A stretch of 64,000 bases of DNA. Origin: Chitinophagales bacterium. GTDB lineage: Bacteria; Bacteroidota; Bacteroidia; Chitinophagales; Saprospiraceae. A program made the position numbers and the translations under genes. Under the pieces are notes generated by a model. It saw nothing but the letters and a program-made list of their open reading frames with translations. It was not told where the DNA came from and ran no database searches. Below are positions 2,217 to 29,599 of the stretch, in pieces; within the stretch, counting starts at the first letter, position 1; each line of letters opens with the position of its first letter. Location: contig JAFLBP010000031.1 in NCBI GenBank assembly GCA_017303875.1, positions 1,661 through 65,660 of the forward strand, read 5' to 3'.

Positions 2217-2287
2217 CACGATTTCCCCAAATCTTGCGTCCTTGCGGCGGTGTTGAATTTTAAATCACTCTTATACTGACAGATACT

Positions 2288-3163
2288 ATGTTGCTTTCGA
2301 TGACGGGTTACGGCCGGGCCGGCGGCAGTTTCGGCGAGAAGATGATTACGGTGGAAATCCGTACCCTGAACTCCAAACTCACCGACGTTAAACTCCGCAT
2401 TCCGGGTGAATACAAGGAAAAAGAAGTGGAACTGCGCAAGCAAATTACCGATCATGCCGAACGCGGCAAAATTGAGGTAAATATTGATGTGCAAAACCTC
2501 GACGGTTCGGTAAACGTAAGCCTCAATGAGGCGCTTTTTAAAGGTTATTACCGCGAACTTAGTCGCCTCGTCAATGAATTGGGTATGCAAAACAGCGACC
2601 TGCTCCAATCCATTCTCCGTATTCCCAATGTCGTTTCTTCCCCTGCCGGTGAAGTAGACGAAGACGAATGGGAGGCTGTTACCGGGGTAGTTGGTCTGGC
2701 CCTGGATCATCTGCGCCATTTCCGCCGTCAGGAAGGCAAGGCCCTTGAGGCCGATCTGCGCCTGCGCGTTGCCAATATCCTGCTGCTGCTTGCCGAAATA
2801 GCACCCTATGAGCAGCAACGCCTAACCCGTATGCGCGAACGCCTGCAAGGCAATCTGGAAGAAAATTTTAAAAAAGATAAAATCGATACCAATCGCTTCG
2901 AGCAGGAAATCCTGTATTACCTCGAAAAAATGGACATTAACGAGGAAAAGGTGCGATTAGAGCAACACTGCAAATACTTTATCGAACAGGTGGAAAACCC
3001 CAAAGTATCGGCCGGCCGAACGCTGGGTTTTCTCTCGCAGGAAATGGGCCGCGAAATCAATACCCTCGGCGCTAAAGCCTACGACGCCGATGTGCAACGC
3101 CTTATCGTTCAAATGAAAGACGAGCTGGAGAAAATCAAGGAGCAGTTGGCAAATATATTGTGA
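2288..3163 (+). CDS. YicC/YloC-family stress-induced protein
   Basis: 291 aa. N-terminus M..SMTGYGRA.......ITVEIR.LNSK is typical of the family, and the C-terminal EMGREINTLG.KA motif is present. Confidence 0.9.
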   Translation: MLLSMTGYGRAGGSFGEKMITVEIRTLNSKLTDVKLRIPGEYKEKEVELRKQITDHAERGKIEVNIDVQNLDGSVNVSLNEALFKGYYRELSRLVNELGMQNSDLLQSILRIPNVVSSPAGEVDEDEWEAVTGVVGLALDHLRHFRRQEGKALEADLRLRVANILLLLAEIAPYEQQRLTRMRERLQGNLEENFKKDKIDTNRFEQEILYYLEKMDINEEKVRLEQHCKYFIEQVENPKVSAGRTLGFLSQEMGREINTLGAKAYDADVQRLIVQMKDELEKIKEQLANIL

Positions 3164-3386
3164 GGCCGCAAGGGCTTCCGTTTTTCCGTCATTTTGCAGC
3201 CGTTCGTCCCGCAAAATGTGCCATTAGCCGTATTTTTATGTTAAACCCTGCTTCTCCCTAAAATAAGAAGGGTGAAAATGATATTTCTATCGCCGTATAC
3301 ACCGCGATATGCCGTTGTATTTACCCGGTAAAAAGCCTTGTCAACCAAAGCGATCGTATCCGGTCAAGATTTACGGCACTAAAATC

Positions 3387-4325
3387 ATGGTAAAATTTAC
3401 TCCGATGGCAATACGCCAATTCGCCTTATTTGTCCTGATCGTTCTTGCTTGCCCCACAACGTCAAAGGCTCAAACCCCAGACCTGCGGCAAGACAAGGCC
3501 TTTTTCCGCCAAAAACGCTTAGATTTTAATCAGTGGCTTTGGCAAAACAAACTACACACCATCTTTCGGGCCGACAGCGTGGAGGCATCCGCCGGCAAAG
3601 TCACCTTATATATACGCCCCGTATATAAAGGCGCCCACGTCTGCGATTCCCTGCAATGCGCCTGGGACAAACTGGAACGCGCCAACCAGCGCGTCAACGG
3701 GCAGTACTTTCACGAACGCCTGTTGCACAAATGGGCTTTCTTAGCCGAAGTACGCCCCGATCAGGCCGAAGTGGTGGTGCGCTGCCACGATCCGGCCCAC
3801 TTTTTGGCCATCGCCAATTCAAAAAACGCGGAAGTGACCTACGCCGGCCGGAATATTCGCGGGGCGCAGGTAGCCGATGTACCCGTGCCAATGCCAGCCC
3901 AATTGCAGGCCGTTAATACCGGCGACAATAAAATGCTGGTGGCGAATAAACAGGTCGGCACACTATGCAGCGACGCACGGCGTTATCTAATCAAGTACTA
4001 TCAATCGAAAGGCACGCCGATTTTGTGGCGGGCAAGGGTCGACAGCTCCTATACCACTTATGATGAGTTTATTCTGGAAGTGACCCACCTGAACTACGAA
4101 ATTTGCCCCGACGGTTTCTTCGAGTACCACCGTATCTATATTAAAGGTGTTCAAAACGGCCCGAATGTGGAAGTTTCCTGGGAATTTCAGGGAAAATACG
4201 GCTCCGGCATTATTTTCCCACCCCGCAAAAACGACTACAAGGATATGGAGGGAAAATACAAAAACAACCTCGAAGAATACCAAAGACGCCTGTTTAAACA
4301 ATTAATGGATTACCTTCGCCGATGA
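3387..4325 (+). CDS. Hypothetical secreted protein
   Basis: ORF 3309-4325. An internal ATG at 3387 gives a signal-peptide-like N-terminus, MVKFTPMAIRQFALFVLIVLACPTTSKAQ. I recognise no family. Confidence 0.6.
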   Translation: MVKFTPMAIRQFALFVLIVLACPTTSKAQTPDLRQDKAFFRQKRLDFNQWLWQNKLHTIFRADSVEASAGKVTLYIRPVYKGAHVCDSLQCAWDKLERANQRVNGQYFHERLLHKWAFLAEVRPDQAEVVVRCHDPAHFLAIANSKNAEVTYAGRNIRGAQVADVPVPMPAQLQAVNTGDNKMLVANKQVGTLCSDARRYLIKYYQSKGTPILWRARVDSSYTTYDEFILEVTHLNYEICPDGFFEYHRIYIKGVQNGPNVEVSWEFQGKYGSGIIFPPRKNDYKDMEGKYKNNLEEYQRRLFKQLMDYLRR

Positions 4326-4816
4326 GTACAAGCAGCCGAACCATCGCCCGACCTATGTCGCAAACCGATACCGAAAAGGCCCAAACGGAGCAAAAAGCGC
4401 CGCTTTCGCCCCGCACCCGCATCGCGCGATTGATACTGATCTATCATTTCGCCCTGATTATCGTTGCCTCCATCTTTTACATCCTGCGGGGCTTCGATCC
4501 GGAAGAGTTTACCTCACTGCTGGGTATTCTGGCGCCCGTCACAGCGCTGTACGGCGGTGCCGTTTTCCGATTCCTGGGGCGCAGCATCACCGAGCCAAAC
4601 CTGAACGGCCAAAACGCCGCCCCTATCAGCAGCATGGTTAAATGGCTGGTTCACGGCCATTTTGCCGTGGTACTCTCCCTCATCAGCCTCAAAGCCTTGG
4701 CGCCTAATGTGCTGAATTTCCAGGACATGACCATGTTCCTCACCCTCGTCGAATCCGCCCTCGGCGTTTATATGGGCAATATTCTGCTGGCCCTTTTTGA
4801 CGGAAAACAGAATTGA
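4322..4816 (+). CDS. Hypothetical integral membrane protein (about 4 TM)
   Basis: 164 aa. The start overlaps the upstream stop (ATGA at 4322-4325), and several hydrophobic helices are present (LILIYHFALIIVASIFYIL, LLGILAPVTALYGGAVF, etc.). Confidence 0.6.
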   Translation: MSTSSRTIARPMSQTDTEKAQTEQKAPLSPRTRIARLILIYHFALIIVASIFYILRGFDPEEFTSLLGILAPVTALYGGAVFRFLGRSITEPNLNGQNAAPISSMVKWLVHGHFAVVLSLISLKALAPNVLNFQDMTMFLTLVESALGVYMGNILLALFDGKQN

Positions 4817-4820
4817 TATA

Positions 4821-4937
4821 ATTTTGGATTTTGGATGCTTGATTTTTGATTAAATTGTTCAAAATCAAAAATTTGCGCAGCAAATAAAAAACAATCAAGC
4901 ATCCAAAATCAAAAATCCAAAATCAAGCATCCAAAAT
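4821..4937. repeat. Word-like imperfect palindrome between convergent genes (probable bidirectional terminator)
   Basis: ttggatgcttgatt (4831-4844) is complementary to aatcaagcatccaa at 4893-4906 and again at 4921-4934. An inner stem atttttgat/atcaaaaat lies at 4842-4850 and 4864-4872. The element is built from GGATTTTGGAT/ATCCAAAATC words. Confidence 0.7.
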
Positions 4938-6890
4938 TCAACTGCGTAGTACCATAATTTTTCCGCTTTGCATCCGTCCTTTGCTCAGGATGCGGATGGT
5001 ATAAAAGCCCGGCGGCAGATCCTGCACTTCCACCTGGTGCTTGCCGGCACTTACTGATTCTAATTTACGGACGGCCTTGCCCTCGGCATCATAAAGGGTG
5101 ACGGATTGCACTTCCACAGGCAATTCAAGGGTAAACTGTACGCTGGCCGGATTGGGGTAATACAGGGCTTTCAGTTCAGGAGTATTTGTCTGCTGTTGCT
5201 GTTGGGTTTCAAAACGGATTTCCGATTGTCCCTTGCAGTTTTCTGTGGCGGTGTACTCCCCGATCAGGCGCACCAGCAGGTCGTTGAGCAATTCCACTTT
5301 ATATTCATCAGTCGTGGGCTCGAGGTGCTTACCGCCGATTCCGCTGTGGTCGGTCAGAAAAACGTAGGTGCCGTTGGTGGCCAGACCGAAAAATTTCATC
5401 AAAAATTCTGTATCTTTCTGGATGCCGCTGGCTGTAACGGGCACAATGCGGATACCGAGGCGTGCGGCTTCGCGGATGCTTCTTTGCAGGCTGGCGCTCA
5501 CTTCCGGGGTTTGGTGCGGACTGGCGTCGAGCACCAGAAAACAAATGCGCGCTACCGCATCCTGGCTCCAGGACTGGCGGAAAATGGCTTCTTCCAGGGC
5601 GCTGTGAACGGCTTCCGGGTAATCGCCGCCGCCGCCGGCAAACTGCTTGCGGATAAAGCCCACCGTTTTGGAGGCATCGGCGTTCAGGTTGCTGCTTTTG
5701 GTGAGGTAGTCGTCGCCGTTGTCGCGGTAAAACACCGTGCCCATGCGGATGGCGAGTTCGGGGTTGAGGGTTTTGACCCGGCCGATCACGTCGAGCAGTT
5801 CGGTTTTCAGGTATTCAATTTCATCGCCCATAGAGCCAGTGGCGTCAACGGCCCACACGATGTCCACATTTTTGGAAGCGCCGCAGGGGGCAGGCAGTTG
5901 CCAGGTATTTATCCCTGCTTTGGCCTCCTTGAGGTTGCGCCATTCCAGCGCCTGTCCCTGATAATTACAGCGCACTTGCAGTTGATCGGCTGCTTTGTCG
6001 TCGAACAGTCCGACCCAGAGTTCTGCCTTGCCGTTATTGTCGGTGCGGGCTTCCCAGAGCAGCGTGTTGCCGCTGTAGAGCGCAACGGGCTGGTCGGAAA
6101 CGGGCAGCCCCTGCGGGTTAGAGAGCAATACCGTGTAGCGGTGTTTGGGGTAAAAGCCGTAAGTTTTCTGGTGCTCGGCAATTTCGCCATCGGCGAGCAG
6201 GTCGAGCCAGTGCTTATCCCAGTTGTGGAGGTCGTTCCATTCGCCGGCAGTGAGCAGGCCGGCGCGGGGCGAAGGTGCAGCGCCGTGGATTTTGCCTTCG
6301 GCCGGGCTGATCTCATCTCCGCTTGCTATTTCCTCCTCGGTGATGGCGGGCTTTATTTTGTCGTATAGCACAGCGCCCTCCGTAAGCGGCGCTGGGGCGG
6401 GTTTGGCCGTCGAGCGGGGCGCTTCCCGCAAAATACTTTCGCTTTTCATAGTGGCTCGATCGCGGCTATGTGGTGCGGCGGACATCACGGCAACTTCGCC
6501 CATGGTTGTCGCTTCCGGGCGCTGGCTGAAATCCGAGACGGTCATTTCTTCCAGCTCCGCATCAGGTGCGAGCACGAAATTGACCGTATTTTTTTCTTTG
6601 TCTTTTACCGTCACGCCGAGGTAGCGATGGCCGGTGTAGCCCGGCTGCGTGCAGGTCAGCACATAAGTACCCGGCTCGATTTTCAGGGAAAACTGGCCAT
6701 TTTTGTCGGTTTTAAGGGTGGCGATAACTTTCGCCTCCTGTGTGATGACGATGCTGGCGCCGCTCAGGGCTAGGCCGGTGCGGAGATCGTTGACCTTGCC
6801 TTCGAGCAGGGTCGGGTTGTTGAAGAAGGGGAAAAATGCCGTGGAGATGAGGCCGACGGCGAGCAGTAAGATCCAATAGCGCATGTTCAT
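4938..6890 (-). CDS. Secreted vWA-domain protein with an N-terminal CarboxypepD_reg-like domain and a T9SS C-terminal sorting domain
   Basis: MIDAS-type vWA start VDIVWAVDATGSMGDEI. N-terminal motif ..GKVNDLRTGLALSGASIV...TDKNGQFSL.IEPGTYVL. C-terminal YYPNPASVQFTLEL...GFYTIRIL...KIMVLRS. Start taken at MNMRYWILLL (6890); alternatives are 6917 and 6884. Confidence 0.8.
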   Translation of the reverse strand: MNMRYWILLLAVGLISTAFFPFFNNPTLLEGKVNDLRTGLALSGASIVITQEAKVIATLKTDKNGQFSLKIEPGTYVLTCTQPGYTGHRYLGVTVKDKEKNTVNFVLAPDAELEEMTVSDFSQRPEATTMGEVAVMSAAPHSRDRATMKSESILREAPRSTAKPAPAPLTEGAVLYDKIKPAITEEEIASGDEISPAEGKIHGAAPSPRAGLLTAGEWNDLHNWDKHWLDLLADGEIAEHQKTYGFYPKHRYTVLLSNPQGLPVSDQPVALYSGNTLLWEARTDNNGKAELWVGLFDDKAADQLQVRCNYQGQALEWRNLKEAKAGINTWQLPAPCGASKNVDIVWAVDATGSMGDEIEYLKTELLDVIGRVKTLNPELAIRMGTVFYRDNGDDYLTKSSNLNADASKTVGFIRKQFAGGGGDYPEAVHSALEEAIFRQSWSQDAVARICFLVLDASPHQTPEVSASLQRSIREAARLGIRIVPVTASGIQKDTEFLMKFFGLATNGTYVFLTDHSGIGGKHLEPTTDEYKVELLNDLLVRLIGEYTATENCKGQSEIRFETQQQQQTNTPELKALYYPNPASVQFTLELPVEVQSVTLYDAEGKAVRKLESVSAGKHQVEVQDLPPGFYTIRILSKGRMQSGKIMVLRS

Positions 6891-6962
6891 TTTTTTTAAG
6901 TATTTCGCGTTGTACACCCCGCGTTGGGGCTGTTGCGCTATGGATGCCGGAGGAGGAAAAAT

Positions 6963-6999
6963 TACATAAACCGTCTTAACCGGGATTTGGGGGGATTTT
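6963..6999 (+). repeat. 37-bp repeat, copy A (tacataaaccgtcttaaccgggatttggggggatttt)
   Basis: 35/37 identical to 14943-14979 in the same orientation. The core is also present inverted at 15072-15119. Confidence 0.85.
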
Positions 7000-7046
7000 T
7001 TGGATTTGCATAACTTAACAGACTTGTGATGCTTTAAGAATTATAA

Positions 7047-7054
7047 TATCTTTG
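7047..7054 (+). promoter_or_regulatory. Candidate -7 box (TATCTTTG) with an upstream TTG for the vapBC operon
   Basis: A TAnnTTTG match lies 23 nt upstream of the ATG at 7077. TTG at 7024-7026 sits about 20 nt upstream of the box. Confidence 0.45.
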
Positions 7055-7076
7055 TTCCGGAATTAAAAAATAACGT

Positions 7077-7289
7077 ATGGCTCAACAATCCATCGCAGAA
7101 ATATTTTCTGTACTCCCACCGGCACAACAGCAGGAACTGTTGGACTTTGCAGACTACCTGATCAAGAAGTATAGTGATACCCAATCTAAATCACTTCATA
7201 AAAGGCAAGCAGGAACCATGAAAGGTTTGGTTCAATTTATGGCTGAAGACTTTAATGCACCACTTCAGGACTTTAATGCCTATATGTGA
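7077..7289 (+). CDS. DUF2281-type antitoxin (VapB-like)
   Basis: 70 aa. ..LPPAQQQELLDFADYLIKKY.. and the C-terminal KGLVQFMAEDFNAPLQDFNAYM are typical of DUF2281 antitoxins. The stop overlaps the downstream PIN gene start. Confidence 0.75.
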   Translation: MAQQSIAEIFSVLPPAQQQELLDFADYLIKKYSDTQSKSLHKRQAGTMKGLVQFMAEDFNAPLQDFNAYM

Positions 7290-7675
7290 TGAAGCATGTA
7301 TTACTCGATACACAGGTTTTAATATGGTACCTGGAAGGAGATGAACGCTTGCCTGACCATATCAAACAGCTTATAGAAGATTCCTCGAATAACATTCAAG
7401 TGCATATAGTTTCCTTTTGGGAAATCGCTATCAAACGCAGCTTAGGTAAACTACTATTATCACAAAGTACTATCAGTCTTATACGGGAATGCATCAGACA
7501 ACATATCAGTATATTACCATTGTCTCCCGAAGAATTGACCTCAGTGGAATCGCTCCCTTTCTATCACCGCGACCCTTTTGATCGTTTAATCATCAGCGCC
7601 GCCGTCAGTAATGGATTACTATTGGCCAGTTCCGACGAGCAATTTGACGACTATCCTGTTACCAGAATTTACTAG
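7289..7675 (+). CDS. vapC: PIN-domain toxin, type II TA VapC family
   Basis: LLDTQVLIWYL.., ..SFWEIAIK.., ..HRDPFDRLIISAA.. and ..LASSDEQF carry the conserved acidic PIN residues. ATG at 7289 shares one nt with the antitoxin TGA; a GTG at 7286 is also possible. Confidence 0.85.
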   Translation: MKHVLLDTQVLIWYLEGDERLPDHIKQLIEDSSNNIQVHIVSFWEIAIKRSLGKLLLSQSTISLIRECIRQHISILPLSPEELTSVESLPFYHRDPFDRLIISAAVSNGLLLASSDEQFDDYPVTRIY

Positions 7676-7857
7676 CCAATTCTCCACCACCAAATCCCGG
7701 CACCGATAAAATCCTTCAAATCAAAAAAAATCAAGCAAATCCTGATTCTAAACCTCCCCTGTACTACACTTCGCTGCGGCGGGCTGCTTCGCTTGCCCAT
7801 GCCGCTACTCCGTTCCGTTCAGGCCTTTTCGCTCAATTGATGGCCGGGATAGGCAAT

Positions 7858-10800
7858 CTACTGACTGGGGGACACGACCCGGAACCCGACACCGTAGCCG
7901 CGATTAACAGGACTGCGGTCGTAGCGATACGACACTCGGCCATACGTGGCGTCGTCGACCCAGGAGCCGCCACGCAGCACACGGCCCGAGCCGGAAGCAG
8001 GCCCTTGTGGGTTGGTCTGGGCCTCCGAAGGGTAGGCACCTTTCCAGTCGCTGCACCATTCCCACACATTGCCTGCCATATCATACAGCCCGAGGGCATT
8101 GGGCCGGAAAGAACCCACCGGGGTGGTTTTGCCGCGATACTCCCCGACGACGGAGTAAGGCTTTTTGTACTCGGCGCTGGCATCAAAATTAGCCTCCCTG
8201 GGGTCTAAAATATTTTTACCATTGCCAAACAAAACGGCTTTGCCGCCTTCGCGGGCAGCGTATTCCCATTCGGCTTCGGTAGGCAGGCGGTAGTTGCGGC
8301 CGGGGTAGCGGGCATTGAGTTTTTGCAGGAAGGTTTGTATGTCATCCCAGCTTACCTGTTCTACCGGGCAGTCGGGGCAGTCCTTAAAATTGGAAGGATT
8401 TTCACCCATTATCTCTTGCCATTGCCGCTGGGTGACTTCGTATTTACCCATATAAAAATCCGAGAGGGTCACGCGGCGGGTGGGTTTTTCGTCGTCGTAA
8501 CAGTCCTGCTGCTCGCTGGTACAGCCCATGGTGAAGGTGCCGCCTTTGATGCGTACCATGCTGGCTTCGGGGTCTTTGAGCAGGGCATCGCGTTCGGCGG
8601 TGGTAGCCGGGGCGAGTAGGGCTTGCTGCTGTGGCTGCTCAGGGGGCGGTGCTGAGCCTTCCACTTCGCGCTTGAAGGCGGCCCAGGCGGCGGCATCTAC
8701 TAATTTTTTCGGACTTTCCTTGCCGGTCAGGTCGTAGCTGCGGTAGAGGTCTTTGGTGCTCAGGCCGTAGCGTTGCAGCAGGGCGCGCACGAGGCGCACG
8801 GCATTGGCGCGGGTTTGGGGCCAGGGAGATTCGGGCTTATCGCTGTCGCAGAGCGTTATGCCCAGCAGCACCTTGTTGAGGCCATCCGGGTTTTGGCGCA
8901 GCAGTTCCTGCCCGAGGGGGCGGTAATTGGCACTGCCTGCATGGTAGGCGATTTCACCTTCCGGGATTACTTGGAGCAGCGTTTTGTCATCCACCACAAA
9001 ATGGGTTGAAGGCGGCCGGTCTATTTTGTTGTAATAATTCCATATTTGTCTCGCATTCAAAGGATCAAATGACCAATACAACACAATGCCCTTTACGGCC
9101 TGCATTTTATAGCGCAGCGAATCCTTCAGTGCAGGTCGGGTTTCGGGATTGCTCAGGAAATCCTGTACCACATCTGGCAGCACGGGGGTGTTTTGTATGG
9201 GGTAGTTTCGGCGCTTGGGGGGCTTGGGGGGCACTTCTCCAACGCCCTGCAACAAGGTTTCGAGGTTCACCGGCATATGCAGGCGCAGGGTATCGAAGTA
9301 GAGGGAGTCGGTTTCTGTCAGTAGTATATTATAATATCGTCTTGCCTCGTCTAACCTATTCCCTGCATTAATCAACGATCGAGTACTATTATTGGCATTT
9401 TTTCGATTTCCCGGATATTGTGCATACACTTTATCCTGAAAGTATGCCGACAGCCCAAGCGCATGCCAGATATTGGAACGCACTGGTGTTGATACTTGTA
9501 AATCTCCATTGCTCAGAGCGCGCCATTTGGCGTCTAAGGTATTAAAGTCAAATGTTCGGCTGAATCGGGTTGAGTCATTTGCATTATCATCCTCTTGTGC
9601 CAAAATGATCCCCCCATTTTGTATTGGAGCGGCAACCCTGATAGAATCATTCAGGTAAAAATTAAAATACTGTGCGATACAGTTGTATTTAAAATGCCCG
9701 GGATGATCAAAAGTTTGGGGCATTATGTCATCATCCGGCCGCCAAAGAAAAGGCCCGTCTATATAGCTATTGGCCTGCACTTTAAATTTCAAAAACAAAC
9801 TATCAGCCATCCTTATGCTGTCCTGATATGGGCCTATCCATTGAGAAAAAGATTTTACATTCCTGATATTCAGCGCCATCCACACCGCCTTATTGTGCCA
9901 AATCTGTGCGGAATCTACAAATTGCTCCTCTTGTATAAAGGTCTCATGGCTTTGCTGCTCCTTCAAGGTATTCAGGTGCGTATGCATCCAAAACGCATAA
10001 GCCCACATCCCCAGCGCAAGCAGTACGCCCAGCAGGCCCCACCAAAAATGGCGGGTAAAACGCGGGCGATGGGCCAGATAAGCCGCTACCGTGCTGACCG
10101 GCAGCGCAATGCGCCGATCCACAAAGCCATCGAGGGCGCGCAACTGCTCGGGCGAAAAATAGCCCAAGGCCAGCAGTTCGCGCAGGGCCTGGCGATGGCT
10201 TTCATTTTCAGGATCTAAGGTAAAGCGGTGCAGACTGAGGTTGGTTTTCCAGTCTATCTCGGCGTAGCTGCCGCGCACCTGGTCCTGTACGGCTTCCAGG
10301 GTTTCGGCGACGGCCAAGCGGGCTTCCCGCTCCTGCTCCGGACTCAGGCAGGCCAGCAGGGCATTGGCCAACTCGGGGTCATATTCATTACGGCTGAGCC
10401 AGGGCACACGACTGAGGCGCAGCAGCCGGTCGTGGGTGCAGTCCAACCCTAATCGTTTGCCAATGGCGAGGGTGAGGGCAAAGTCAGGCTGTACGCTCAC
10501 CGCCAGGGCGCAAAGCCAAGTAAAGGCTTCGGGGTCGTGCGCAAAATAGGCGCGGATGGCCTCGGGATCGCGCCAGTTCACGGTGCGCGGATTGGGTTCC
10601 GCGCGGCGGGCAGCGAGGCGCTCCTCCCAACGGTCATAGGGGCCGGGTTCGTATTCGTCGAGGGTTTCCAGGCTACTCAGTCCGGCCAGTATACCCTCCG
10701 TGTCGGCGGGGTACAGCAGCATTTCCCGGTGCAGCAGCACCTCGGTATCTTTCCAGGCGCTCAGGGGCTGTACACTCAGGAAAAGGCGTTTTTTCCAGCT

Positions 10801-12441
10801 CGCCAATCGCTGCATGGTTTCTGGCAGCAGGGCAGGCAGGCGGGTATCGTATACATTGAGCAGGCCCGCGCCGCTGCCGAGTAGCACGAGGCGGCGGTCG
10901 GCGAAATGTTGTTGTATTTTATCCAAATGCAGTCCCGCCGGATGGGCGTCGTTCCAGAAGTTGCGGTAGTCGCCATTGTGGTAAAAAACCTCCAGGGGGG
11001 CGTCCTGGCGCTGAAAAAACCTTCCCAAACGCTCCAGCAGGCGGCCTTGCTGATCAAAAGCCGTCGGCCGTTCGATGAGGAAAAGCCAGGCTGGCGGACT
11101 CTGCTCGCGGCGGCTTAGCAGGGTTGGGAAACCACCGGCATTGATGGTGGCGCGCACGGAAGCAGGGATATCCCAACTGCGTTTTTCGTTTTCTTCCCGG
11201 CGGCGCAGCAGTTCGGCCATGCGGAAAAAGTCGGGCGGCGTGGCAATTTTATCGTCCTGCGGCAGGTAAGGAATAAAATACGGTGCTTTGTCGTGTATCG
11301 GGTGCTGCTCGGCCAGTGCAGCCGGGTCGGCAGTTTCGTGCTTGCGGCGACGGGCCAGCCACCAGCGCCAAAAGCACCAGAGCGCAAACAACAGGGGCAA
11401 AAGCGGCAGCGCCCATACCCAGGCGTACAGGCGGTAGCGCATGGGCGTGGAAGTGTCGTAAGCCAAAGGCGCATACGCCAGCAGGGGCTTGCTGTTGCCA
11501 ACATCAAAAGCGAGCGTCGTGTCAGAATAGCAGTACAGGCTGTCCCGTGCAATCCGACAGCGCACCGTTGCAGAGCCGTTTTCGCGGAAGGTATAGCGGG
11601 CGGTATTTCCCCAAACGGAATCCTTGCGGTTGAATATCCAGCGTACCACAACGCCTTTTTCGGGCTTGGGCAGAGAAAACATGTAGGCAGTATCGGTGCG
11701 CAGGGGCGATTGAGGGGTTTTGAGGCCCAGGAGTGAAGGCGCTGCGGTGCAGTGTACCGACAGGAGCAGGGAATCCTTGCCGCGCACACCTGCGTGCAGG
11801 GATAGGCTTCGGTCGCGCCCGATGTCGGTGGCTGTCCAGCGGAAATGCTCAGAAGTATCGCGGCGTTCGAGTGCGCCGGTAGCGGCATCGCGGAGTTCCC
11901 AGGAGGAGGAATCGGGGTGCAGGTTTTCGCTCAGGTTTCGGAATACGTGGGGTTCGCCTTCGCGCAGGCGGCCGTCCGGCAGCAATTTTTCAAATTCCGG
12001 CGGCGGCAGCGGGGTTGTTTTGCCTGTTGGTGTTGTAAAAATAAAATAGGCTACCAGGCCCAGCAGCAACAGTCCCGCAACAGCGAGCAGCCATTGCCGG
12101 AAATCGCGGCGGGGCTTTATCGGGGGCGTTGGATCGGGTGTTGCCGGTGGTTCAAAGGGGATCTTTTCGGCGCTCCATTCGGCAGCTTCTTTTTCGCATT
12201 CGGCCCAAAATTGTTCAAAAATAAGATAAAAACGGCCTTGTTCTTCGGCATTGGTAGCGACAAATGGCGCGAGGCGTTGCGCCAACGCGCTGGCGGAGAA
12301 CTGGCCGATATGTTGGGTGGCGTATTGTTCAAATACCTGCAATAAGCGCAACTTCCGTCCGGTATCCATGCGGAAACCGGCGGCTTTGAGCTGGGCGAAG
12401 AGTTGCTCCAGCGGCAAAGGAATGTGTGCTTGCGGTGGCAT
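7858..12441 (-). CDS. 1527-aa three-TM multidomain protein: N-terminal helical module, MIDAS-less vWA-like cytoplasmic segment, and PGRP/amidase_2-like plus FGE-sulfatase-like C-terminal domains
   Basis: TM helices lie at about aa 117-136, 338-362 and 799-819, each flanked by R/K clusters on the predicted cytoplasmic side. aa ~423-590 reads WDIPASVRATINAGGFPTLLSRRE..PPAWLFLIERPTAFDQQ...LEVFYHNGD...RRLVLLGSGAG. aa ~1117-1247 is amidase_2-like (IVLYWSFD..STHFVVD..AYHAGSANY..LGITLCD..YRSYDLTGKESPK). aa 1295-1527 is FGE-sulfatase-like (MVRIKGGTFTMG...YMGKYEVTQRQW...RLPTEAEWEYAAR...YDMAGNVWEWC...RVLRGGSW). Confidence 0.85.
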   Translation of the reverse strand: MPPQAHIPLPLEQLFAQLKAAGFRMDTGRKLRLLQVFEQYATQHIGQFSASALAQRLAPFVATNAEEQGRFYLIFEQFWAECEKEAAEWSAEKIPFEPPATPDPTPPIKPRRDFRQWLLAVAGLLLLGLVAYFIFTTPTGKTTPLPPPEFEKLLPDGRLREGEPHVFRNLSENLHPDSSSWELRDAATGALERRDTSEHFRWTATDIGRDRSLSLHAGVRGKDSLLLSVHCTAAPSLLGLKTPQSPLRTDTAYMFSLPKPEKGVVVRWIFNRKDSVWGNTARYTFRENGSATVRCRIARDSLYCYSDTTLAFDVGNSKPLLAYAPLAYDTSTPMRYRLYAWVWALPLLPLLFALWCFWRWWLARRRKHETADPAALAEQHPIHDKAPYFIPYLPQDDKIATPPDFFRMAELLRRREENEKRSWDIPASVRATINAGGFPTLLSRREQSPPAWLFLIERPTAFDQQGRLLERLGRFFQRQDAPLEVFYHNGDYRNFWNDAHPAGLHLDKIQQHFADRRLVLLGSGAGLLNVYDTRLPALLPETMQRLASWKKRLFLSVQPLSAWKDTEVLLHREMLLYPADTEGILAGLSSLETLDEYEPGPYDRWEERLAARRAEPNPRTVNWRDPEAIRAYFAHDPEAFTWLCALAVSVQPDFALTLAIGKRLGLDCTHDRLLRLSRVPWLSRNEYDPELANALLACLSPEQEREARLAVAETLEAVQDQVRGSYAEIDWKTNLSLHRFTLDPENESHRQALRELLALGYFSPEQLRALDGFVDRRIALPVSTVAAYLAHRPRFTRHFWWGLLGVLLALGMWAYAFWMHTHLNTLKEQQSHETFIQEEQFVDSAQIWHNKAVWMALNIRNVKSFSQWIGPYQDSIRMADSLFLKFKVQANSYIDGPFLWRPDDDIMPQTFDHPGHFKYNCIAQYFNFYLNDSIRVAAPIQNGGIILAQEDDNANDSTRFSRTFDFNTLDAKWRALSNGDLQVSTPVRSNIWHALGLSAYFQDKVYAQYPGNRKNANNSTRSLINAGNRLDEARRYYNILLTETDSLYFDTLRLHMPVNLETLLQGVGEVPPKPPKRRNYPIQNTPVLPDVVQDFLSNPETRPALKDSLRYKMQAVKGIVLYWSFDPLNARQIWNYYNKIDRPPSTHFVVDDKTLLQVIPEGEIAYHAGSANYRPLGQELLRQNPDGLNKVLLGITLCDSDKPESPWPQTRANAVRLVRALLQRYGLSTKDLYRSYDLTGKESPKKLVDAAAWAAFKREVEGSAPPPEQPQQQALLAPATTAERDALLKDPEASMVRIKGGTFTMGCTSEQQDCYDDEKPTRRVTLSDFYMGKYEVTQRQWQEIMGENPSNFKDCPDCPVEQVSWDDIQTFLQKLNARYPGRNYRLPTEAEWEYAAREGGKAVLFGNGKNILDPREANFDASAEYKKPYSVVGEYRGKTTPVGSFRPNALGLYDMAGNVWEWCSDWKGAYPSEAQTNPQGPASGSGRVLRGGSWVDDATYGRVSYRYDRSPVNRGYGVGFRVVSPSQ

Positions 12442-12538
12442 TAGTTATTCAAATGCGGAATGTTTCAAATGCGGAATGCGGAGTGCGGAATACCCCTTCC
12501 TTCAGGAGGGCCGGGGTGGGTTGCGGAGTACGGATGAA

Positions 12539-12739
12539 CGACCCTGAAGGGGTCGAATATGAATAGCCCCGGATGCAATCCGGGGTTCGTAGTAACATAG
12601 CCAACGACCCTGAAGGGGTCGAATATGGCCCGGCGTATCCCGGCATTTTAATATTCGACCCCTTCAGGGTCGGATAAACCTGATTGATATACCCCGGATT
12701 GCATCCGGGGCTATCCATATTTGACCCTTTCAGGGTCTG
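12539..12739. repeat. Composite REP/BIME-like palindrome (U-P-U / U'-P'-U')
   Basis: Unit cgaccctgaaggggtcgaatat occurs at 12539-12560 and 12605-12626. Its exact reverse complement is at 12651-12672, with a diverged copy at 12717-12739. The hairpin ccccggatgcaatccgggg (12567-12585) recurs inverted at 12691-12712. GCGGAAT word repeats lie upstream at 12449-12491. Confidence 0.85.
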
Positions 12740-12807
12740 TGCATCCGGGTACAGGTGCATTGTGCAAGGATGCTGCCTGGTATCGCTTGTTGCCAATCGT
12801 CTGTTCC

Positions 12808-13731
12808 TCATGGCAAAATTTGTTTTAAAACCTTGTGCACGGCATCGAGGTCGTCCTTGGTTTTGATGAGGAAGGACAGGTTTTCTTCTTTGAGTTGGCG
12901 TTGTCTGGCGGTGTCGGCGCTCCAGAAGCCTTTGGTTTGCAGGAGTTTGAGCCAGGCAATCAACTCGGCGGTGGCCGGCGATTTGCGCACAGAAGCGGCG
13001 CGGATTTTTTCAAAAAAACTGATCAGGTCGTCGTAACCCGCTTTGGTTTGTTCGGTGATGCCGCCGAGGTGCAGCGACACGATGTCGCGCAGGTCCTGTC
13101 CCTTCGGAAATTCGATATGGTAAAAAGCGCAGCGGCGCAGAAAGGCGTCGGGCAGGTTTTTTTCCGAATTGGAGGTCAGGATAACCACAATATCGGCCGC
13201 CGGATTTTTCTGCGCTTTAAATCCGGGAATTTCGCGGATGGCAAATCGGTAGTGCAGGATTTCATCAAGCAGGTCGTTGGTGAAATCGCGGGGCGCTTTA
13301 TCCACCTCGTCGATGAGCACCACACTGCTTTTAGGCTGTTCGGGCAGCGCAATACCGAAGGTTTGCAGGAGCGCGGGGTCGAGTCCTTCCGGACGGGAAT
13401 AGGCCACTGCTTCCCCGAATGCGTTGAGACTGATGAAATTTTCGGCGGGCGTTGTGCGCTCAATATTGCGCAGGTTGGCGGCCTGGAAATGAGACAGTGC
13501 GTCGTAAGTATAGAACAAATCCGTGGCCCTCGACACCGTTTTGGTATTAAACACCAGCACTTCCTCATGGAATCGGCCGGGGTATTTGTTTTGCAGGTAC
13601 TCAAGTGCCCAGCGGGCCATTTCGGTTTTGCCGGTGCCCGGCTCGCCGGTGAGCAGGAGGGGTTGTTTCATCTGGACGGCGGCCTCAAAAGCATTTTTCA
13701 GGCTGTCGCTTGCTTTATATTTAATCGGCAT
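12808..13731 (-). CDS. MoxR-class AAA+ ATPase
   Basis: 307 aa. Walker A is LLLTGEPGTGKTEMA, Walker B is VVLIDEVDKAPRDF, sensor-1 is VVILTSNSEKNLP and the Arg region is DAFLRRC. The size and single-AAA architecture are typical of MoxR. Confidence 0.9.
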   Translation of the reverse strand: MPIKYKASDSLKNAFEAAVQMKQPLLLTGEPGTGKTEMARWALEYLQNKYPGRFHEEVLVFNTKTVSRATDLFYTYDALSHFQAANLRNIERTTPAENFISLNAFGEAVAYSRPEGLDPALLQTFGIALPEQPKSSVVLIDEVDKAPRDFTNDLLDEILHYRFAIREIPGFKAQKNPAADIVVILTSNSEKNLPDAFLRRCAFYHIEFPKGQDLRDIVSLHLGGITEQTKAGYDDLISFFEKIRAASVRKSPATAELIAWLKLLQTKGFWSADTARQRQLKEENLSFLIKTKDDLDAVHKVLKQILP

Positions 13732-13737
13732 AAGCGC

Positions 13738-14874
13738 TTATTTTTTCGAGTTGATGCGGGCAATGCGTTTGTTGTGTTCGATGATGCGCTCGCGGAGTAT
13801 TCGCTCCACGGCTTCCATATCCATTTGCTGGATGTTGCCAAAAAGCTGATCCACCATTTGATTTTCATCTTTATCCATATCCACCATAAGGCGGCGGTAG
13901 CGGCTGAACCACTCCACCATATCGGGGCGCGTAACGGCTCGGAGTTCTTCGAGGGTTTCTTGCGGGGCGGTGGCGGCGTGCTCGCGGATGACGGCGTCTA
14001 CTTCAGCGCGTTTGTTGGTGTTGTCCGCCGCGTATTCGATACCGAAGAAAAAGAAAAATTGAGGCGCCGTATCAGGCAGGGCAGCGGCGAGGAAGGTAGT
14101 GACAAAATCGCGGACAAAAACGGGGGTGACGGCCTTGTTCCAGTTAGCATCGTCCATGGTGATGAGCACGAACACGTAGTCGTTCGGGCCGTAGCTGCTC
14201 AGTTCGGGGCTTTGCAGCAATTCGCCGATATTTTTTTGTAAAATCGGCTCTTTTTCGTTTACTTTATCAAAAAAATTGGCCAAAAGCGCTTTAATTACCT
14301 CAATTTTATACAGCATGGGCACAGAGCGCACGCTTGGTTTGAGGTATTTAAACAGGACTTTGGTGCCCGATTCGTATTGCCCGTTTTCCCAGTTGAGCAG
14401 TTGGCCGCCTTGTTCGCGGCCGAGGCGTTCGTGCAGGCTCTCATGCGCCTGCGCGGCATCGCCGTAGAGGTAAAATTTATGTATTTTTTTGCCCTGTCCG
14501 TCGGTGTAAAAATACAATTCAAAGGCGTCGCGCTGGGCAAAGCGGTCGCAGGTCAGGGCGTGGTATTCGGGCAGGCAAAAATGGTCTTTGCAATTGGCCT
14601 GCCAGGCCTCGTTGAGGTCTTCAAATCGGATGCGTTCGATAAACCAAAGCAGGGCTTCGGCAACGCTGTTAAAGGTTTTGGATTGATCCCGGAAGTCAAT
14701 TTGACCGAAATGCCCGGCAGCGCGGGCGTTGTTGTAGCGCGACTGGAGGAGGATGAGTTCGTTGTAACGCGGGCTGTCTTGCTGGAGCGCTTCCTCAATA
14801 CTGGCAATCACCTCATCGTAGCGGGCTTCGCCGACAAGGTTTTTCCAATTGTATTTAAGGGCTGCCTCCAACAT
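13738..14874 (-). CDS. Hypothetical protein: EAD-like helical N-terminal module plus an alpha/beta region lacking a Walker A motif
   Basis: 378 aa. The stop is 6 nt from the MoxR start. The N-terminus ..YDEVIASIEEALQQDSPRYNELILLQSRYNNARAAGHFGQIDFRDQSKTFNSVAEALLWFIERI resembles the helical effector-associated domains at the N-termini of Bacteroidota STAND/TIR proteins. YLYGDAAQAHESLHERL sits where a P-loop would be. The function call is an inference. Confidence 0.65.
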   Translation of the reverse strand: MLEAALKYNWKNLVGEARYDEVIASIEEALQQDSPRYNELILLQSRYNNARAAGHFGQIDFRDQSKTFNSVAEALLWFIERIRFEDLNEAWQANCKDHFCLPEYHALTCDRFAQRDAFELYFYTDGQGKKIHKFYLYGDAAQAHESLHERLGREQGGQLLNWENGQYESGTKVLFKYLKPSVRSVPMLYKIEVIKALLANFFDKVNEKEPILQKNIGELLQSPELSSYGPNDYVFVLITMDDANWNKAVTPVFVRDFVTTFLAAALPDTAPQFFFFFGIEYAADNTNKRAEVDAVIREHAATAPQETLEELRAVTRPDMVEWFSRYRRLMVDMDKDENQMVDQLFGNIQQMDMEAVERILRERIIEHNKRIARINSKK

Positions 14875-29543: not shown

Positions 29544-29599
29544 AGATTGTTTTGTTTGACGCCGCAAGAAAAGCATATTTTTGTCTTTTACCAATACAG

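What the first reader, a model, noticed from the sequence alone, without database searches (positions are those of the whole stretch)
8701..9093. PGRP / amidase_2-like domain with all three zinc ligands apparently substituted (predicted non-catalytic muropeptide binder)
The segment aa 1117-1247 aligns by eye to the T7-lysozyme/PGRP pattern:
- ..IVLYWSFD.. against IFVHCSAT
- STHFVVD against GYHFII
- AYHAGSANY..LGITLCD against GSHAKGYN..IGVCLVG
- LYRSYDLTGKESPK against LRAHHEVAPKACPS

The positions of the Zn ligands (His, His, Cys in T7 lysozyme) read Tyr, Ser/Tyr and Ser here. Non-catalytic PGRPs with a lost Cys ligand are established peptidoglycan sensors in animals. A dead PGRP module in the predicted periplasmic part of a MoxR-linked bacterial protein suggests sensing of cell-wall fragments, for example from lysis or attack.
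Basis: partly seen in the sequence, partly recalled or inferred. Interest (0 to 1): 0.65.

Follow-up and report, generated by a model that had tools for sequence, protein, structure and literature searches.

The report
Dead cell-wall amidase in defence scaffold
A large membrane protein of a predicted bacterial immune system carries, on its periplasmic side, a well-folded copy of a cell-wall-cutting enzyme that has lost its entire active site, so it most likely only binds the cell wall, much as insect immune receptors do.

Summary
Residues 1116-1244 of the 1527-aa protein (window 7858-12441, minus strand) are a true Amidase_2 domain: Pfam E=1.6e-11; AlphaFold pLDDT 90.8; best structural matches are the prophage endolysins XlyA, PlyL and PlyG.

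All three zinc ligands are replaced (H→Y1122, H→S1235, C→S1243), and so is the catalytic Glu (→T1196). These four columns are 99-100% conserved in 147 homologues. The domain keeps 28 of 35 conserved positions and is under purifying selection (dN/dS 0.16), so it is a maintained pseudoenzyme, not a relic.

It belongs to the phage/bacterial endolysin branch, not to animal PGRPs.

The host protein is a three-pass membrane scaffold. It follows EAD11-iSTAND and MoxR-like AAA+ genes, as in the iSTAND ternary conflict system of Kaur et al. 2020. This gene order is conserved in about 30 Saprospiraceae-type genomes.

The next domain, FGE/C-type lectin, also lacks catalytic cysteines. Its tail is hypervariable like a diversity-generating retroelement target, and two relatives carry the retroelement in cis.

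Peptidoglycan binding, and whether the module senses or merely anchors, are inferred and untested. I rate it a new variant of a known kind, of moderate interest.

The parts
8710..9096 (-). Amidase_2-fold pseudoenzyme domain (aa 1116-1244). The structured core in the model spans aa 1091-1261, window 8659-9171.
   Evidence: Pfam PF01510 E=1.6e-11; AF2 pLDDT 90.8; Foldseek top hits XlyA/PlyL/PlyG; dN/dS 0.16 against allele L001.
9076..9078 (-). Y1122, at the position of the first Zn ligand (PlyL H29 / T7 H17).
   Evidence: His in 100% of 147 homologues.
8854..8856 (-). T1196, at the position of the catalytic Glu (PlyL E90).
   Evidence: Glu in 99% of homologues. PDB entry 2ar3 is the E90A mutant of PlyL.
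8737..8739 (-). S1235, at the position of the second Zn ligand (PlyL H129 / T7 H122). It is Asn in the allele P0001.
8713..8715 (-). S1243, at the position of the third Zn ligand (PlyL C137 / T7 C130).
8719..8721 (-). K1241, the retained conserved Lys (PlyL K135 / T7 K128).
7858..12441 (-). 1527-aa three-pass membrane scaffold that carries the domain.
- N-terminal cytoplasmic helical region: aa 1-117
- TM1: aa 118-136
- Periplasmic loop: aa 137-337 (a PKD domain sits here in relatives)
- TM2: aa 338-356
- Conserved cytoplasmic alpha/beta plus helical module: aa 366-795
- TM3: aa 799-817
- Periplasmic C-terminal region: aa 818-1527
7873..8565 (-). FGE-sulfatase / C-type-lectin-fold domain (aa 1293-1523), without the FGE catalytic cysteines.
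   Evidence: Pfam E=1.9e-54; the family profile hits T. denticola TvpA, 2y3c; tail sequence.
7882..7971 (-). Hypervariable tail of the FGE domain (aa 1491-1520), a candidate DGR variable region.
   Evidence: Against L001: 23 nonsynonymous and 1 synonymous change, dN/dS 9.7, differences 14/8/2 at codon positions 1/2/3. Relatives L020 and L017 carry a cis TR with adenine-specific mismatches, and L020 also a full-length RT.
12808..13731 (-). MoxR-like AAA+ ATPase (307 aa).
   Evidence: Pfam AAA_5 and AAA; found next to the scaffold gene in about 30 of 36 related loci.
13738..14874 (-). EAD11 + iSTAND protein (378 aa).
   Evidence: Pfam EAD11 E=1.2e-14, iSTAND E=9.5e-13; conserved upstream of the AAA+ gene in related loci.

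Best explanation
The segment is a catalytically dead N-acetylmuramoyl-L-alanine amidase module of the XlyA/PlyL endolysin type. It sits in the periplasmic C-terminal region of the large membrane-spanning third component of an EAD11-iSTAND / MoxR-like ternary conflict system in a Saprospiraceae-like Bacteroidota bacterium.

The module has lost the zinc site (Y1122, S1235, S1243) and the general base (T1196). It keeps the fold and most other conserved residues.

Proposed mechanism: it binds the MurNAc-stem-peptide part of peptidoglycan without cutting it. That would dock the ectodomain on the cell's own sacculus, or report the state of the sacculus, next to a hypervariable, DGR-type C-type-lectin (FGE-fold) ligand-binding domain. 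The two non-enzymatic binding modules would together form an extracytoplasmic receptor or anchor head. This head is coupled through three TM helices to a conserved cytoplasmic module that the MoxR-like ATPase and the EAD11-iSTAND protein act on.

Shown: fold, loss of catalytic residues, purifying selection, operon conservation, hypervariability of the neighbouring domain.

Predicted: topology.

Inferred: peptidoglycan binding, and the direction of signalling (sensor versus anchor).
For: 1. Domain identity and fold.
2. Loss of exactly the four 99-100% conserved catalytic or zinc residues, while 28 of 35 conserved columns are kept, including H1147, D1151, E1163, H1167, N1189, R1234, D1237, K1241 and P1244. 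The chance of this pattern is 6.7e-4.
3. Purifying selection on the domain: 29 synonymous against 19 nonsynonymous differences to allele L001, dN/dS 0.16, Fisher p=4e-9. This is similar to the scaffold (0.15) and to the FGE core (0.12).
4. All five scaffold-borne Amidase_2 lineages lie beside iSTAND and AAA+ genes, and all deviate in at least one of the five catalytic positions. Only 5 of 140 free-standing homologues do so (Fisher p=5e-7). Catalysis therefore seems dispensable in this context.
5. A scaffold paralogue, P0003, carries an unrelated peptidoglycan amidase fold (Amidase_3) in the same slot with intact H/E/H/E. This points to peptidoglycan as the partner of that slot.
6. Kaur et al. 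2020 (PMC7159879) already report peptidoglycan-associating domains (OmpA, PASTA, PEGA, Sel1) after a TM segment in iSTAND systems, with FGS as the commonest C-terminal domain.
7. Periplasmic location follows from three TM segments with a positive-inside pattern.
8. The neighbouring FGE domain is non-catalytic and hypervariable. Relatives have a cis DGR.
Against: - No binding data exist, and no coordinates were available to inspect the groove.
- Tyr at 1122 is bulky and could partly fill the former metal site and alter the groove.
- Only two close alleles carry this fully dead form, so the selection estimate rests on one pairwise comparison in a region that looks recombinant.
- The published model for these systems calls the C-terminal domains 'effectors' and places invader sensing in the iSTAND protein. 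A sensing role for the ectodomain is therefore not the published expectation.
- A vWA domain, expected in the third component, could not be detected in the cytoplasmic module.
- No DGR template repeat or reverse transcriptase lies in the 64-kb window.
Confidence: 0.55

Rival explanations
1. The dead amidase fold is a protein-protein interaction module that does not bind peptidoglycan. It might hold the neighbouring lectin domain, a periplasmic partner or another scaffold copy. Precedents are T7 lysozyme binding T7 RNA polymerase and PGRP-LF binding PGRP-LC.
For: - The domain is under purifying selection without catalytic residues.
- The substitutions include a bulky Tyr in the metal site.
- The domain evolves faster than its free-standing relatives: it is 36-40% identical to them, whereas P0019 is 46% identical to P0020.
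- That T7 lysozyme and some PGRPs moonlight as protein binders is established knowledge.
Against: - Most non-catalytic conserved residues of the active enzymes are retained.
- An intact Amidase_3 sits in the same slot of a paralogue.
- Other peptidoglycan-associating domains occur in this system class.
All three observations point to peptidoglycan.
Confidence: 0.17
2. The domain is a specific sensor of soluble muropeptides or of damaged wall. Fragments released by phage endolysins, predators or neighbours' lysis would bind the domain and trigger the MoxR/iSTAND machinery from outside to inside.
For: - The logic parallels the non-catalytic PGRP receptors of animals.
- The ectodomain pairs the dead amidase with a hypervariable receptor-type lectin domain.
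- The system belongs to predicted conflict systems.
Against: - Nothing separates sensing from anchoring.
- Published models place invader sensing in iSTAND.
- The periplasm always contains the cell's own peptidoglycan and its turnover products, so a specific danger signal would need discrimination that has not been shown.
Confidence: 0.2
3. The domain is an evolutionary relic of a formerly lytic effector. It decays neutrally and has no present function.
For: - Relatives carry more complete catalytic sets: P0046 and P0081 have H, E, H, C, and P0019 lacks only the Glu.
- Position 1235 differs between the two close alleles (S versus N).
- Amidase_2 is rare in the family: 1 of 36 GTDB species loci.
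Against: - dN/dS is 0.16 with 29 synonymous changes.
- There are no frameshifts or stops in three independent assemblies.
- The model has pLDDT 90.8.
- 28 of 35 conserved columns are kept.
Confidence: 0.06
4. The domain is still a peptidoglycan hydrolase that uses a non-canonical, metal-independent mechanism.
For: K1241 and several polar groove residues are kept.
Against: All three metal ligands and the general base are replaced by Tyr, Ser, Ser and Thr. To my knowledge no metal-independent Amidase_2 enzyme has been described. In the PlyL family the E90A mutant was made as the inactive form (PDB 2ar3).
Confidence: 0.02

Closest known systems
XlyA / PlyL / PlyG-type prophage endolysin amidases (Amidase_2, PF01510; PDB 3hmb, 3rdr, 1yb0, 2l47)
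   Same: They share the fold (Foldseek E about 1e-12, TM 0.81-0.87), detectable sequence homology (phmmer E=1e-8) and the same conserved motifs (SxHY, VDD, AYHxG, GIxxC, RxxDxxGKxxP).
   Different: Those enzymes have His-His-Cys zinc ligands plus Glu and Lys. Here the residues are Y1122, S1235, S1243 and T1196. The domain is an internal periplasmic module of a 1527-aa membrane protein, not an N-terminal lytic domain with a wall-binding C-terminus.
Non-catalytic animal PGRPs (Drosophila PGRP-SA, -LC, -LE; mammalian PGLYRP1)
   Same: They share the superfold and the loss of the Cys ligand (Ser in its place). They use a dead amidase as a recognition module. PGRP-LC is, like this protein, a membrane receptor that feeds a death-domain/caspase pathway (the PGRP biology is established knowledge; Foldseek hits 1s2j and 2f2l).
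   Different: They are only distant structural matches (E about 3e-4, rank 38 and below). The origin is independent, from the endolysin branch. Here all three ligands and the Glu are lost, not just the Cys. Binding has not been demonstrated.
iSTAND ternary conflict systems (MoxR - vWA component - iSTAND; Kaur, Burroughs, Iyer, Aravind, eLife 2020, PMC7159879)
   Same: The locus has an EAD-iSTAND gene, a MoxR-like AAA+ gene and a large third component with TM segments. That component has a variable C-terminal region ending in an FGS/FGE domain. Peptidoglycan-associating domains after a TM segment are described for this class. [quoted passage not shown]
   Different: An Amidase_2, PGRP-like or Amidase_3 module is not mentioned in the text of either eLife paper (0 occurrences). 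Only one supplementary text file of the 2020 paper was held and searched, also with no match. I could not detect a vWA domain in the third component.
DGR variable proteins with an FGE-type C-type-lectin fold (Treponema denticola TvpA, 2y3c; Bordetella phage Mtd)
   Same: The adjacent domain has the same fold (family profile against TvpA, E=2.5e-37) and a C-terminal hypervariable stretch with changes at codon positions 1 and 2. Relatives carry HRDC-RT-TR in cis.
   Different: No TR or RT lies in this 64-kb window. This comparison concerns the neighbouring domain, not the amidase-like segment itself.
Degenerate cell-wall hydrolase folds used as regulators in bacteria (LytM-type EnvC/NlpD; CwlM)
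   Same: The general principle is the same: a peptidoglycan hydrolase fold that has lost metal ligands and is retained for binding or regulation (established knowledge; pseudopeptidase review PMC11266112 listed).
   Different: The folds differ (LytM/M23 or Amidase_3) and the job is housekeeping cell division, not a conflict-system ectodomain.

Membership tests
Amidase_2 / PGRP homologous superfamily (PF01510) | Sequence match above the curated Pfam threshold | tested here: met
   45.1 bits against a cut-off of 26, E=1.6e-11, covering profile positions 5-129 of 131.
Amidase_2 / PGRP homologous superfamily (PF01510) | T7-lysozyme/PGRP alpha/beta fold | tested here: met
   AF2 pLDDT 90.8. Foldseek against PDB: XlyA, PlyL, PlyG, LysGH15, AmiE, AmpD, T7 lysozyme and PGRPs, 41 hits with E<=1e-3. 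BFVD endolysins also match.
Zinc N-acetylmuramoyl-L-alanine amidase (enzyme class) | His-His-Cys/Asp zinc-binding triad | tested here: not met
   Y1122, S1235 and S1243 stand at the three positions.
Zinc N-acetylmuramoyl-L-alanine amidase (enzyme class) | General base or transition-state residues (PlyL E90; Lys K135 / T7 K128) | tested here: not met
   Glu is replaced by T1196. Lys is retained as K1241.
Zinc N-acetylmuramoyl-L-alanine amidase (enzyme class) | Hydrolysis of the MurNAc-L-Ala bond | not testable with these tools
   This needs a biochemical assay.
Animal-type peptidoglycan recognition proteins (PGRP) | Closest relatives are PGRPs (membership of the PGRP clade) | tested here: not met
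   The nearest sequences and structures are endolysin-type amidases. PGRPs appear only at Foldseek rank 38 and below.
Animal-type peptidoglycan recognition proteins (PGRP) | Demonstrated binding of peptidoglycan or muropeptide | not testable with these tools
   Inferred only.
iSTAND ternary system (Kaur et al. 2020) | iSTAND protein with an N-terminal effector-associated domain | tested here: met
   EAD11 E=1.2e-14 and iSTAND E=9.5e-13 in the product of 13738-14874.
iSTAND ternary system (Kaur et al. 2020) | Adjacent MoxR-type AAA+ ATPase | tested here: inconclusive
   AAA_5 and AAA matches and a partial MadB-family match. Placement in the MoxR clade was not tested phylogenetically.
iSTAND ternary system (Kaur et al. 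2020) | Third component contains a vWA domain | tested here: inconclusive
   No Pfam VWA hit. The AF2 model of aa 366-795 is an alpha/beta plus helical module, but Foldseek against PDB gives no significant match. A profile search of PDB hits only the FGE domain. A highly divergent vWA is not excluded.
iSTAND ternary system (Kaur et al. 2020) | Conserved three-gene neighbourhood with a variable C-terminal region in the third component | tested here: met
   The order iSTAND -> AAA+ -> scaffold is found in about 30 of 36 GTDB loci. C-terminal modules vary: FGE, Amidase_3, TPR, CarboxypepD_reg, beta-helix-like, redoxin.
DGR target protein (for the adjacent FGE domain) | Template repeat with adenine-specific mismatches, and a reverse transcriptase | tested here: not met
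   Neither is present in the window. Both are present in relative L020. In L017 the TR is present, with only a partial RT match at the contig end. The window has only the variable-region signature.

The most novel reading that the evidence does not exclude
This may be a bacterial counterpart, evolved independently, of the insect PGRP-LC/Imd receptor logic. A membrane receptor has an ectodomain that pairs a dead peptidoglycan amidase with a DGR-diversified lectin domain. It would read cell-wall damage or invader-derived ligands in the periplasm and relay this across the membrane to a MoxR/iSTAND machine. That machine would recruit death-type effectors through EAD11 adaptors; caspase-EAD11 genes sit beside the homologous systems in L041 and L042. 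If so, the system is an outside-in, programmable innate immune receptor in filamentous Bacteroidota.
Probability: 0.2. Interest if true: 0.8.

Novelty: new variant of a known kind. Interest (0 to 1): 0.52.

Why it matters
Predicted NTPase-centred conflict systems of multicellular or filamentous bacteria are almost entirely uncharacterised experimentally. It is not known what they sense or where.

This locus gives a concrete, testable handle. It has a small, well-folded, soluble periplasmic module (about 170 aa) whose only plausible job is ligand binding. It sits next to a hypervariable lectin domain.

Three observations suggest that contact with the cell wall is a recurring requirement of this system class:
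- Amidase_2 modules recur in these scaffolds.
- Those modules are nearly always catalytically impaired.
- An intact Amidase_3 occupies the same slot in a paralogue.

It would also be a clear case, outside animals, of a peptidoglycan amidase fold converted into a non-enzymatic recognition module within an immunity-type system.

Tried and rejected
1. A word-indexed homologue search with the 206-aa domain found nothing. The exhaustive representative search was needed.
2. I looked for a vWA domain in the cytoplasmic module with Pfam, AF2 plus Foldseek, and a profile search of PDB. None gave a significant match.
3. PADLOC gave no hit for the scaffold or the iSTAND protein, and only weak P-loop matches for the ATPase.
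4. I searched the window for a DGR template repeat with blastn at word size 7, and with an adenine-tolerant scan of both strands. Nothing was found. I also searched for a reverse transcriptase with Pfam on 20 ORFs and with tblastn using the L020 RT, again without a hit.
5. A metagenome scan with a 23-nt constant VR flank returned only an unrelated high-GC contig.
6. A crude NJ tree of the domains was meant to decide whether the scaffold-borne amidases share one origin. The window domain grouped with P0046, P0081 and P0129, while P0019 fell among free-standing proteins. Long branches make this unreliable, so I do not claim a stepwise decay series.
7. No second EAD11-bearing gene is present in the window.
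8. Literature searches found no description of a dead bacterial Amidase_2 module in such systems.
9. A register-shift rescue of the ligands is rejected. The neighbours of each ligand position are Leu/Trp, Arg/Tyr and Glu/Pro, and no His, Cys or Asp lies within one residue.
Full report
**1. What is at the coordinates**

Window 8701-9093 (minus strand) encodes aa 1117-1247 of a 1527-aa ORF at 7858-12441, minus strand. Pfam finds two domains in this protein:
- Amidase_2 at aa 1116-1244: E=1.6e-11, 45.1 bits, gathering cut-off 26.
- FGE-sulfatase at aa 1293-1523: E=1.9e-54.

Searching the domain against PDB sequences gives the prophage endolysin amidases XlyA (3hmb, E=1e-8), PlyL (1yb0) and PlyG (2l47). 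An AlphaFold2 model of aa 1085-1290, built on a 150-sequence alignment, has mean pLDDT 90.8. Foldseek against the PDB ranks XlyA, PlyL and PlyG first, with E about 1e-12 and TM 0.81-0.87 normalised to the target. Then come LysGH15, AmiE/AmiA, AmpD, AmpDh2, AmiD, LytA and T7 lysozyme. Animal PGRPs appear only from rank 38, at E about 3e-4. Against predicted viral structures the best matches are phage endolysin amidases.

**2. The ligand positions**

In the HMMER alignment to PlyL the catalytic positions map as follows (numbering checked; PDB 2ar3 is the E90A mutant):

| PlyL | T7 lysozyme | Window protein |
|---|---|---|
| H29 | H17 | Y1122 |
| E90 | – | T1196 |
| H129 | H122 | S1235 |
| K135 | K128 | K1241 (kept) |
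| C137 | C130 | S1243 |

An exhaustive HMMER search of 1.84 billion cluster representatives found 1219 proteins with E<=1e-3. I aligned the best 148. In 147 of them (leaving out the window protein, its close allele and P0019), the His, Glu, His and Cys columns are 99-100% conserved.

Of 35 columns that are at least 80% conserved, the window protein keeps 28. Its seven changes include all four of those near-invariant columns. By chance that would happen with p=6.7e-4. No alternative His, Cys or Asp lies next to any ligand position, so a register shift cannot restore the site.

A 97%-identical allele (P0001) was assembled independently from two sequencing runs. It has Y, T, N and S at the same positions. 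The substitutions are therefore real.

**3. Maintained or decaying?**

I compared the window gene codon by codon with the allele on L001.

| Region (codons) | dS | dN/dS | Notes |
|---|---|---|---|
| Scaffold, 1-1000 | 0.017 | 0.15 | nearly identical |
| Amidase-like domain, 1111-1250 | 0.375 | 0.16 | 29 synonymous, 19 nonsynonymous; Fisher p=4e-9 |
| FGE core, 1293-1490 | 0.475 | 0.12 | – |

From about codon 1060 onward the two alleles diverge strongly. The dead domain is thus under purifying selection comparable to the rest of the protein, which argues against a neutral relic.

Two caveats apply. This is a single pairwise comparison. The sharp jump in dS also indicates that the C-terminal part was exchanged by recombination.

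**4. The protein and its operon**

Hydropathy gives three TM segments, at aa 118-136, 338-356 and 799-817. Basic residues cluster before TM1, after TM2 and before TM3. This predicts:
- a cytoplasmic N-terminus;
- a periplasmic loop at aa 137-337, where relatives have a PKD domain;
- a cytoplasmic module at aa 366-795;
- a periplasmic C-terminal region at aa 818-1527 that holds the dead amidase and the FGE domain.

Directly upstream on the same strand are a 307-aa AAA+ ATPase (AAA_5/AAA; 12808-13731) and a 378-aa protein with EAD11 and iSTAND domains (13738-14874).

This is the arrangement that Kaur et al. (eLife 2020, PMC7159879) call the iSTAND ternary system. They report four features of that class:
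- the third component often has TM segments;
- it has a highly variable C-terminal 'effector' region;
- the commonest C-terminal domain is FGS/FGE (about 22% of examples);
- peptidoglycan-associating domains (PEGA, OmpA, PASTA, Sel1) occur after a TM segment.

A scan of one genome per GTDB species found 36 loci with the same scaffold. Nearly all are from Saprospiraceae or Lewinellaceae MAGs. The order iSTAND, AAA+, scaffold is kept wherever the contig allows, in about 30 loci.

I could not confirm the vWA domain expected in the third component. Pfam finds none. The AF2 model of aa 366-795 (pLDDT 81.5) is an alpha/beta plus helical module with no significant PDB match. A family profile hits only FGE structures.

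**5. The amidase slot across the family**

The scaffold is conserved up to about aa 1075, and the region after that is a cassette. Relatives there carry SH3-like, beta-helix-like, TPR, CarboxypepD_reg or redoxin modules (the first two labels are from my reading of the sequences; the others from Pfam). P0003 carries an Amidase_3 domain. That Amidase_3 has all four canonical residues (His, Glu, His, Glu) when aligned to solved Amidase_3 structures.

Amidase_2 is rare in the family. Among the 36 GTDB loci it occurs only in the locus of P0019. The exhaustive search showed four further scaffold-type proteins with Amidase_2. Each lies beside iSTAND and AAA+ genes.

| Protein | Residues at H-E-H-K-C |
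|---|---|
| Window / P0001 | Y-T-S(N)-K-S |
| P0019 | H-T-H-K-C |
| P0046 | H-E-H-G-C |
| P0081 | H-E-H-D-C |
| P0129 | H-K-F-K-C |

So all five scaffold-borne lineages deviate in at least one of the five catalytic positions, against 5 of 140 free-standing homologues (Fisher p=5e-7). Two caveats apply: the lineages may not be independent, and the alignment around the Lys in P0046, P0081 and P0129 contains insertions.

The window protein is the extreme case of a general trend. In this context the amidase fold appears to be used without efficient catalysis. A crude NJ tree did not resolve whether these domains share one origin, so I do not claim an ordered decay series.

**6. The neighbouring domain (seen in passing, but relevant)**

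The last 30 codons of the FGE domain (aa 1491-1520, window 7882-7971) differ from the L001 allele by 23 nonsynonymous changes and 1 synonymous change (dN/dS 9.7). The 24 nucleotide differences fall 14/8/2 at codon positions 1/2/3. In the FGE core the distribution is 11/10/51. This is the signature of adenine mutagenesis by a diversity-generating retroelement (DGR) on AAY-type codons.

The same stretch is also hypervariable between other close pairs in the family (P0006/P0007 and P0003/P0004, sequences). It lacks the two catalytic cysteines of true FGE enzymes (the position of those cysteines is from my own knowledge).

Two relatives carry the retroelement in cis:
- In L020 the scaffold gene is followed by an HRDC-domain gene, a reverse transcriptase (RVT_1) and a template repeat. 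The template repeat differs from the variable region at 13 positions, 12 of them adenines in the template.
- L017 has a template repeat with 15 of 17 mismatches at adenines.

The window itself contains no template repeat and no reverse transcriptase. If a DGR acts here it is encoded elsewhere. Kaur et al. note this possibility for VMAP systems.

Both periplasmic end modules are therefore non-enzymatic binding folds. This fits a receptor or anchor head better than an enzymatic effector.

**7. Most likely mechanism**

I propose that the dead amidase binds the glycan-stem-peptide part of peptidoglycan without cleaving it. This would dock the ectodomain on the sacculus or read its state, beside the hypervariable lectin domain. 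The ectodomain is coupled through the membrane to the conserved cytoplasmic module, which the MoxR-like ATPase and EAD11-iSTAND act on.

- Shown: fold, loss of all catalytic residues, purifying selection, operon conservation, the trend among scaffold-borne domains, and hypervariability of the neighbouring domain.
- Predicted: topology.
- Inferred: peptidoglycan binding, and whether information flows outside-in (sensor) or the module merely anchors or positions the protein.

The first two cannot be excluded. The last two are unlikely on the selection and residue evidence.

**8. Comparison with what is known**

- The domain is a member of the Amidase_2 homologous superfamily (threshold and fold tests met). 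It fails the defining features of the enzyme class (zinc triad, general base).
- It works like a non-catalytic PGRP but is not a member of that clade. It derives from the endolysin branch.
- The system matches the published iSTAND ternary class in gene content and order.
- An amidase-fold or PGRP-like module is not mentioned in the text of either eLife paper. The one supplementary file held as text for the 2020 paper also has no match.
- My literature searches found no description of a dead bacterial Amidase_2 module in such systems.

**9. Verdict**

I rate it a new variant of a known kind: a pseudo-amidase added to the list of peptidoglycan-associating modules of iSTAND ternary systems, paired with a DGR-type variable lectin domain. 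Interest is moderate, because the function is inferred and the system class was already predicted to contact the cell wall. The module is nevertheless an unusually tractable entry point for experiments.

Noticed in passing
window 7882-7971 (- strand; aa 1491-1520 of the same protein): The C-terminal tail of the FGE/C-type-lectin domain is hypervariable against the 97%-identical allele L001. There are 23 nonsynonymous changes and 1 synonymous change, and the differences fall 14/8/2 at codon positions 1/2/3. This is a DGR variable-region signature. No template repeat or reverse transcriptase is present in the 64-kb window.
   Followed up: yes
L020 7809-9655; L017 10304-10826: Scaffold-family relatives carry a DGR in cis. 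In L020 the scaffold gene is followed by an HRDC gene, an RVT_1 reverse transcriptase and a template repeat; the variable region and template differ at 13 positions, 12 of them adenines in the template. L017 has a template repeat with 15 of 17 mismatches at adenines and a partial RT match at the contig end. DGR diversification therefore occurs in iSTAND-type systems of Saprospirales.
   Followed up: yes
window 12442-12807: The 366-bp spacer between the MoxR-like gene and the scaffold gene is filled with nested palindromic repeats (GACCCTGAAGGGGTC hairpins, CCCCGGATGCAATCCGGGG hairpins, and a 47-nt inverted repeat that is 94% complementary). It looks like REP/MITE-type elements. The 120-aa ORF at 12449-12811 is probably spurious.
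   Followed up: partly
window 7858-12441 versus L001 146-4729: Divergence is mosaic. Codons 1-1000 have dS 0.017, whereas codons 1061-1170 have dS 0.5-1.1. This implies a recombination breakpoint near aa 1060, at the start of the variable C-terminal cassette region.
   Followed up: partly
P0003 (aa 1054-1242), a scaffold paralogue: An Amidase_3 domain with intact His/Glu/His/Glu occupies the same slot before the FGE domain. It is a second, unrelated peptidoglycan amidase fold recruited to this position.
   Followed up: partly
L041 2180-3538; L042 2260-3639: Related systems that carry Amidase_2 scaffolds have an extra upstream gene encoding caspase (Peptidase_C14) fused to EAD11. This is the presumed partner effector for the iSTAND adaptor. 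No second EAD11 gene is present in the window.
   Followed up: partly
window 4938-6917 (- strand): The gene immediately downstream encodes a T9SS-sorted protein with CarboxypepD_reg, VWA and Por_Secre_tail domains. The same neighbour is present in L001 but not in L003. It is unclear whether it belongs to the system.
   Followed up: partly
window 19610-20338 (+ strand): This ORF encodes a protein with a long N-terminal RGG / DRGGFNR repeat region and an acidic C-terminus. It was not analysed.
   Followed up: no
window 29552-30748 and 30822-31883 (+ strand): Two tandem paralogous genes each carry a DUF3667 domain.
   Followed up: no
L040 (unrelated high-GC metagenome contig) 2245-8728: The contig holds a MoxR-like gene, two FGE-domain regions, an HRDC gene, a reverse transcriptase and a partial FGE copy at 7569-7700 that may be a template repeat. 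It looks like another MoxR-linked DGR locus. It was found by chance through a shared 23-mer.
   Followed up: no
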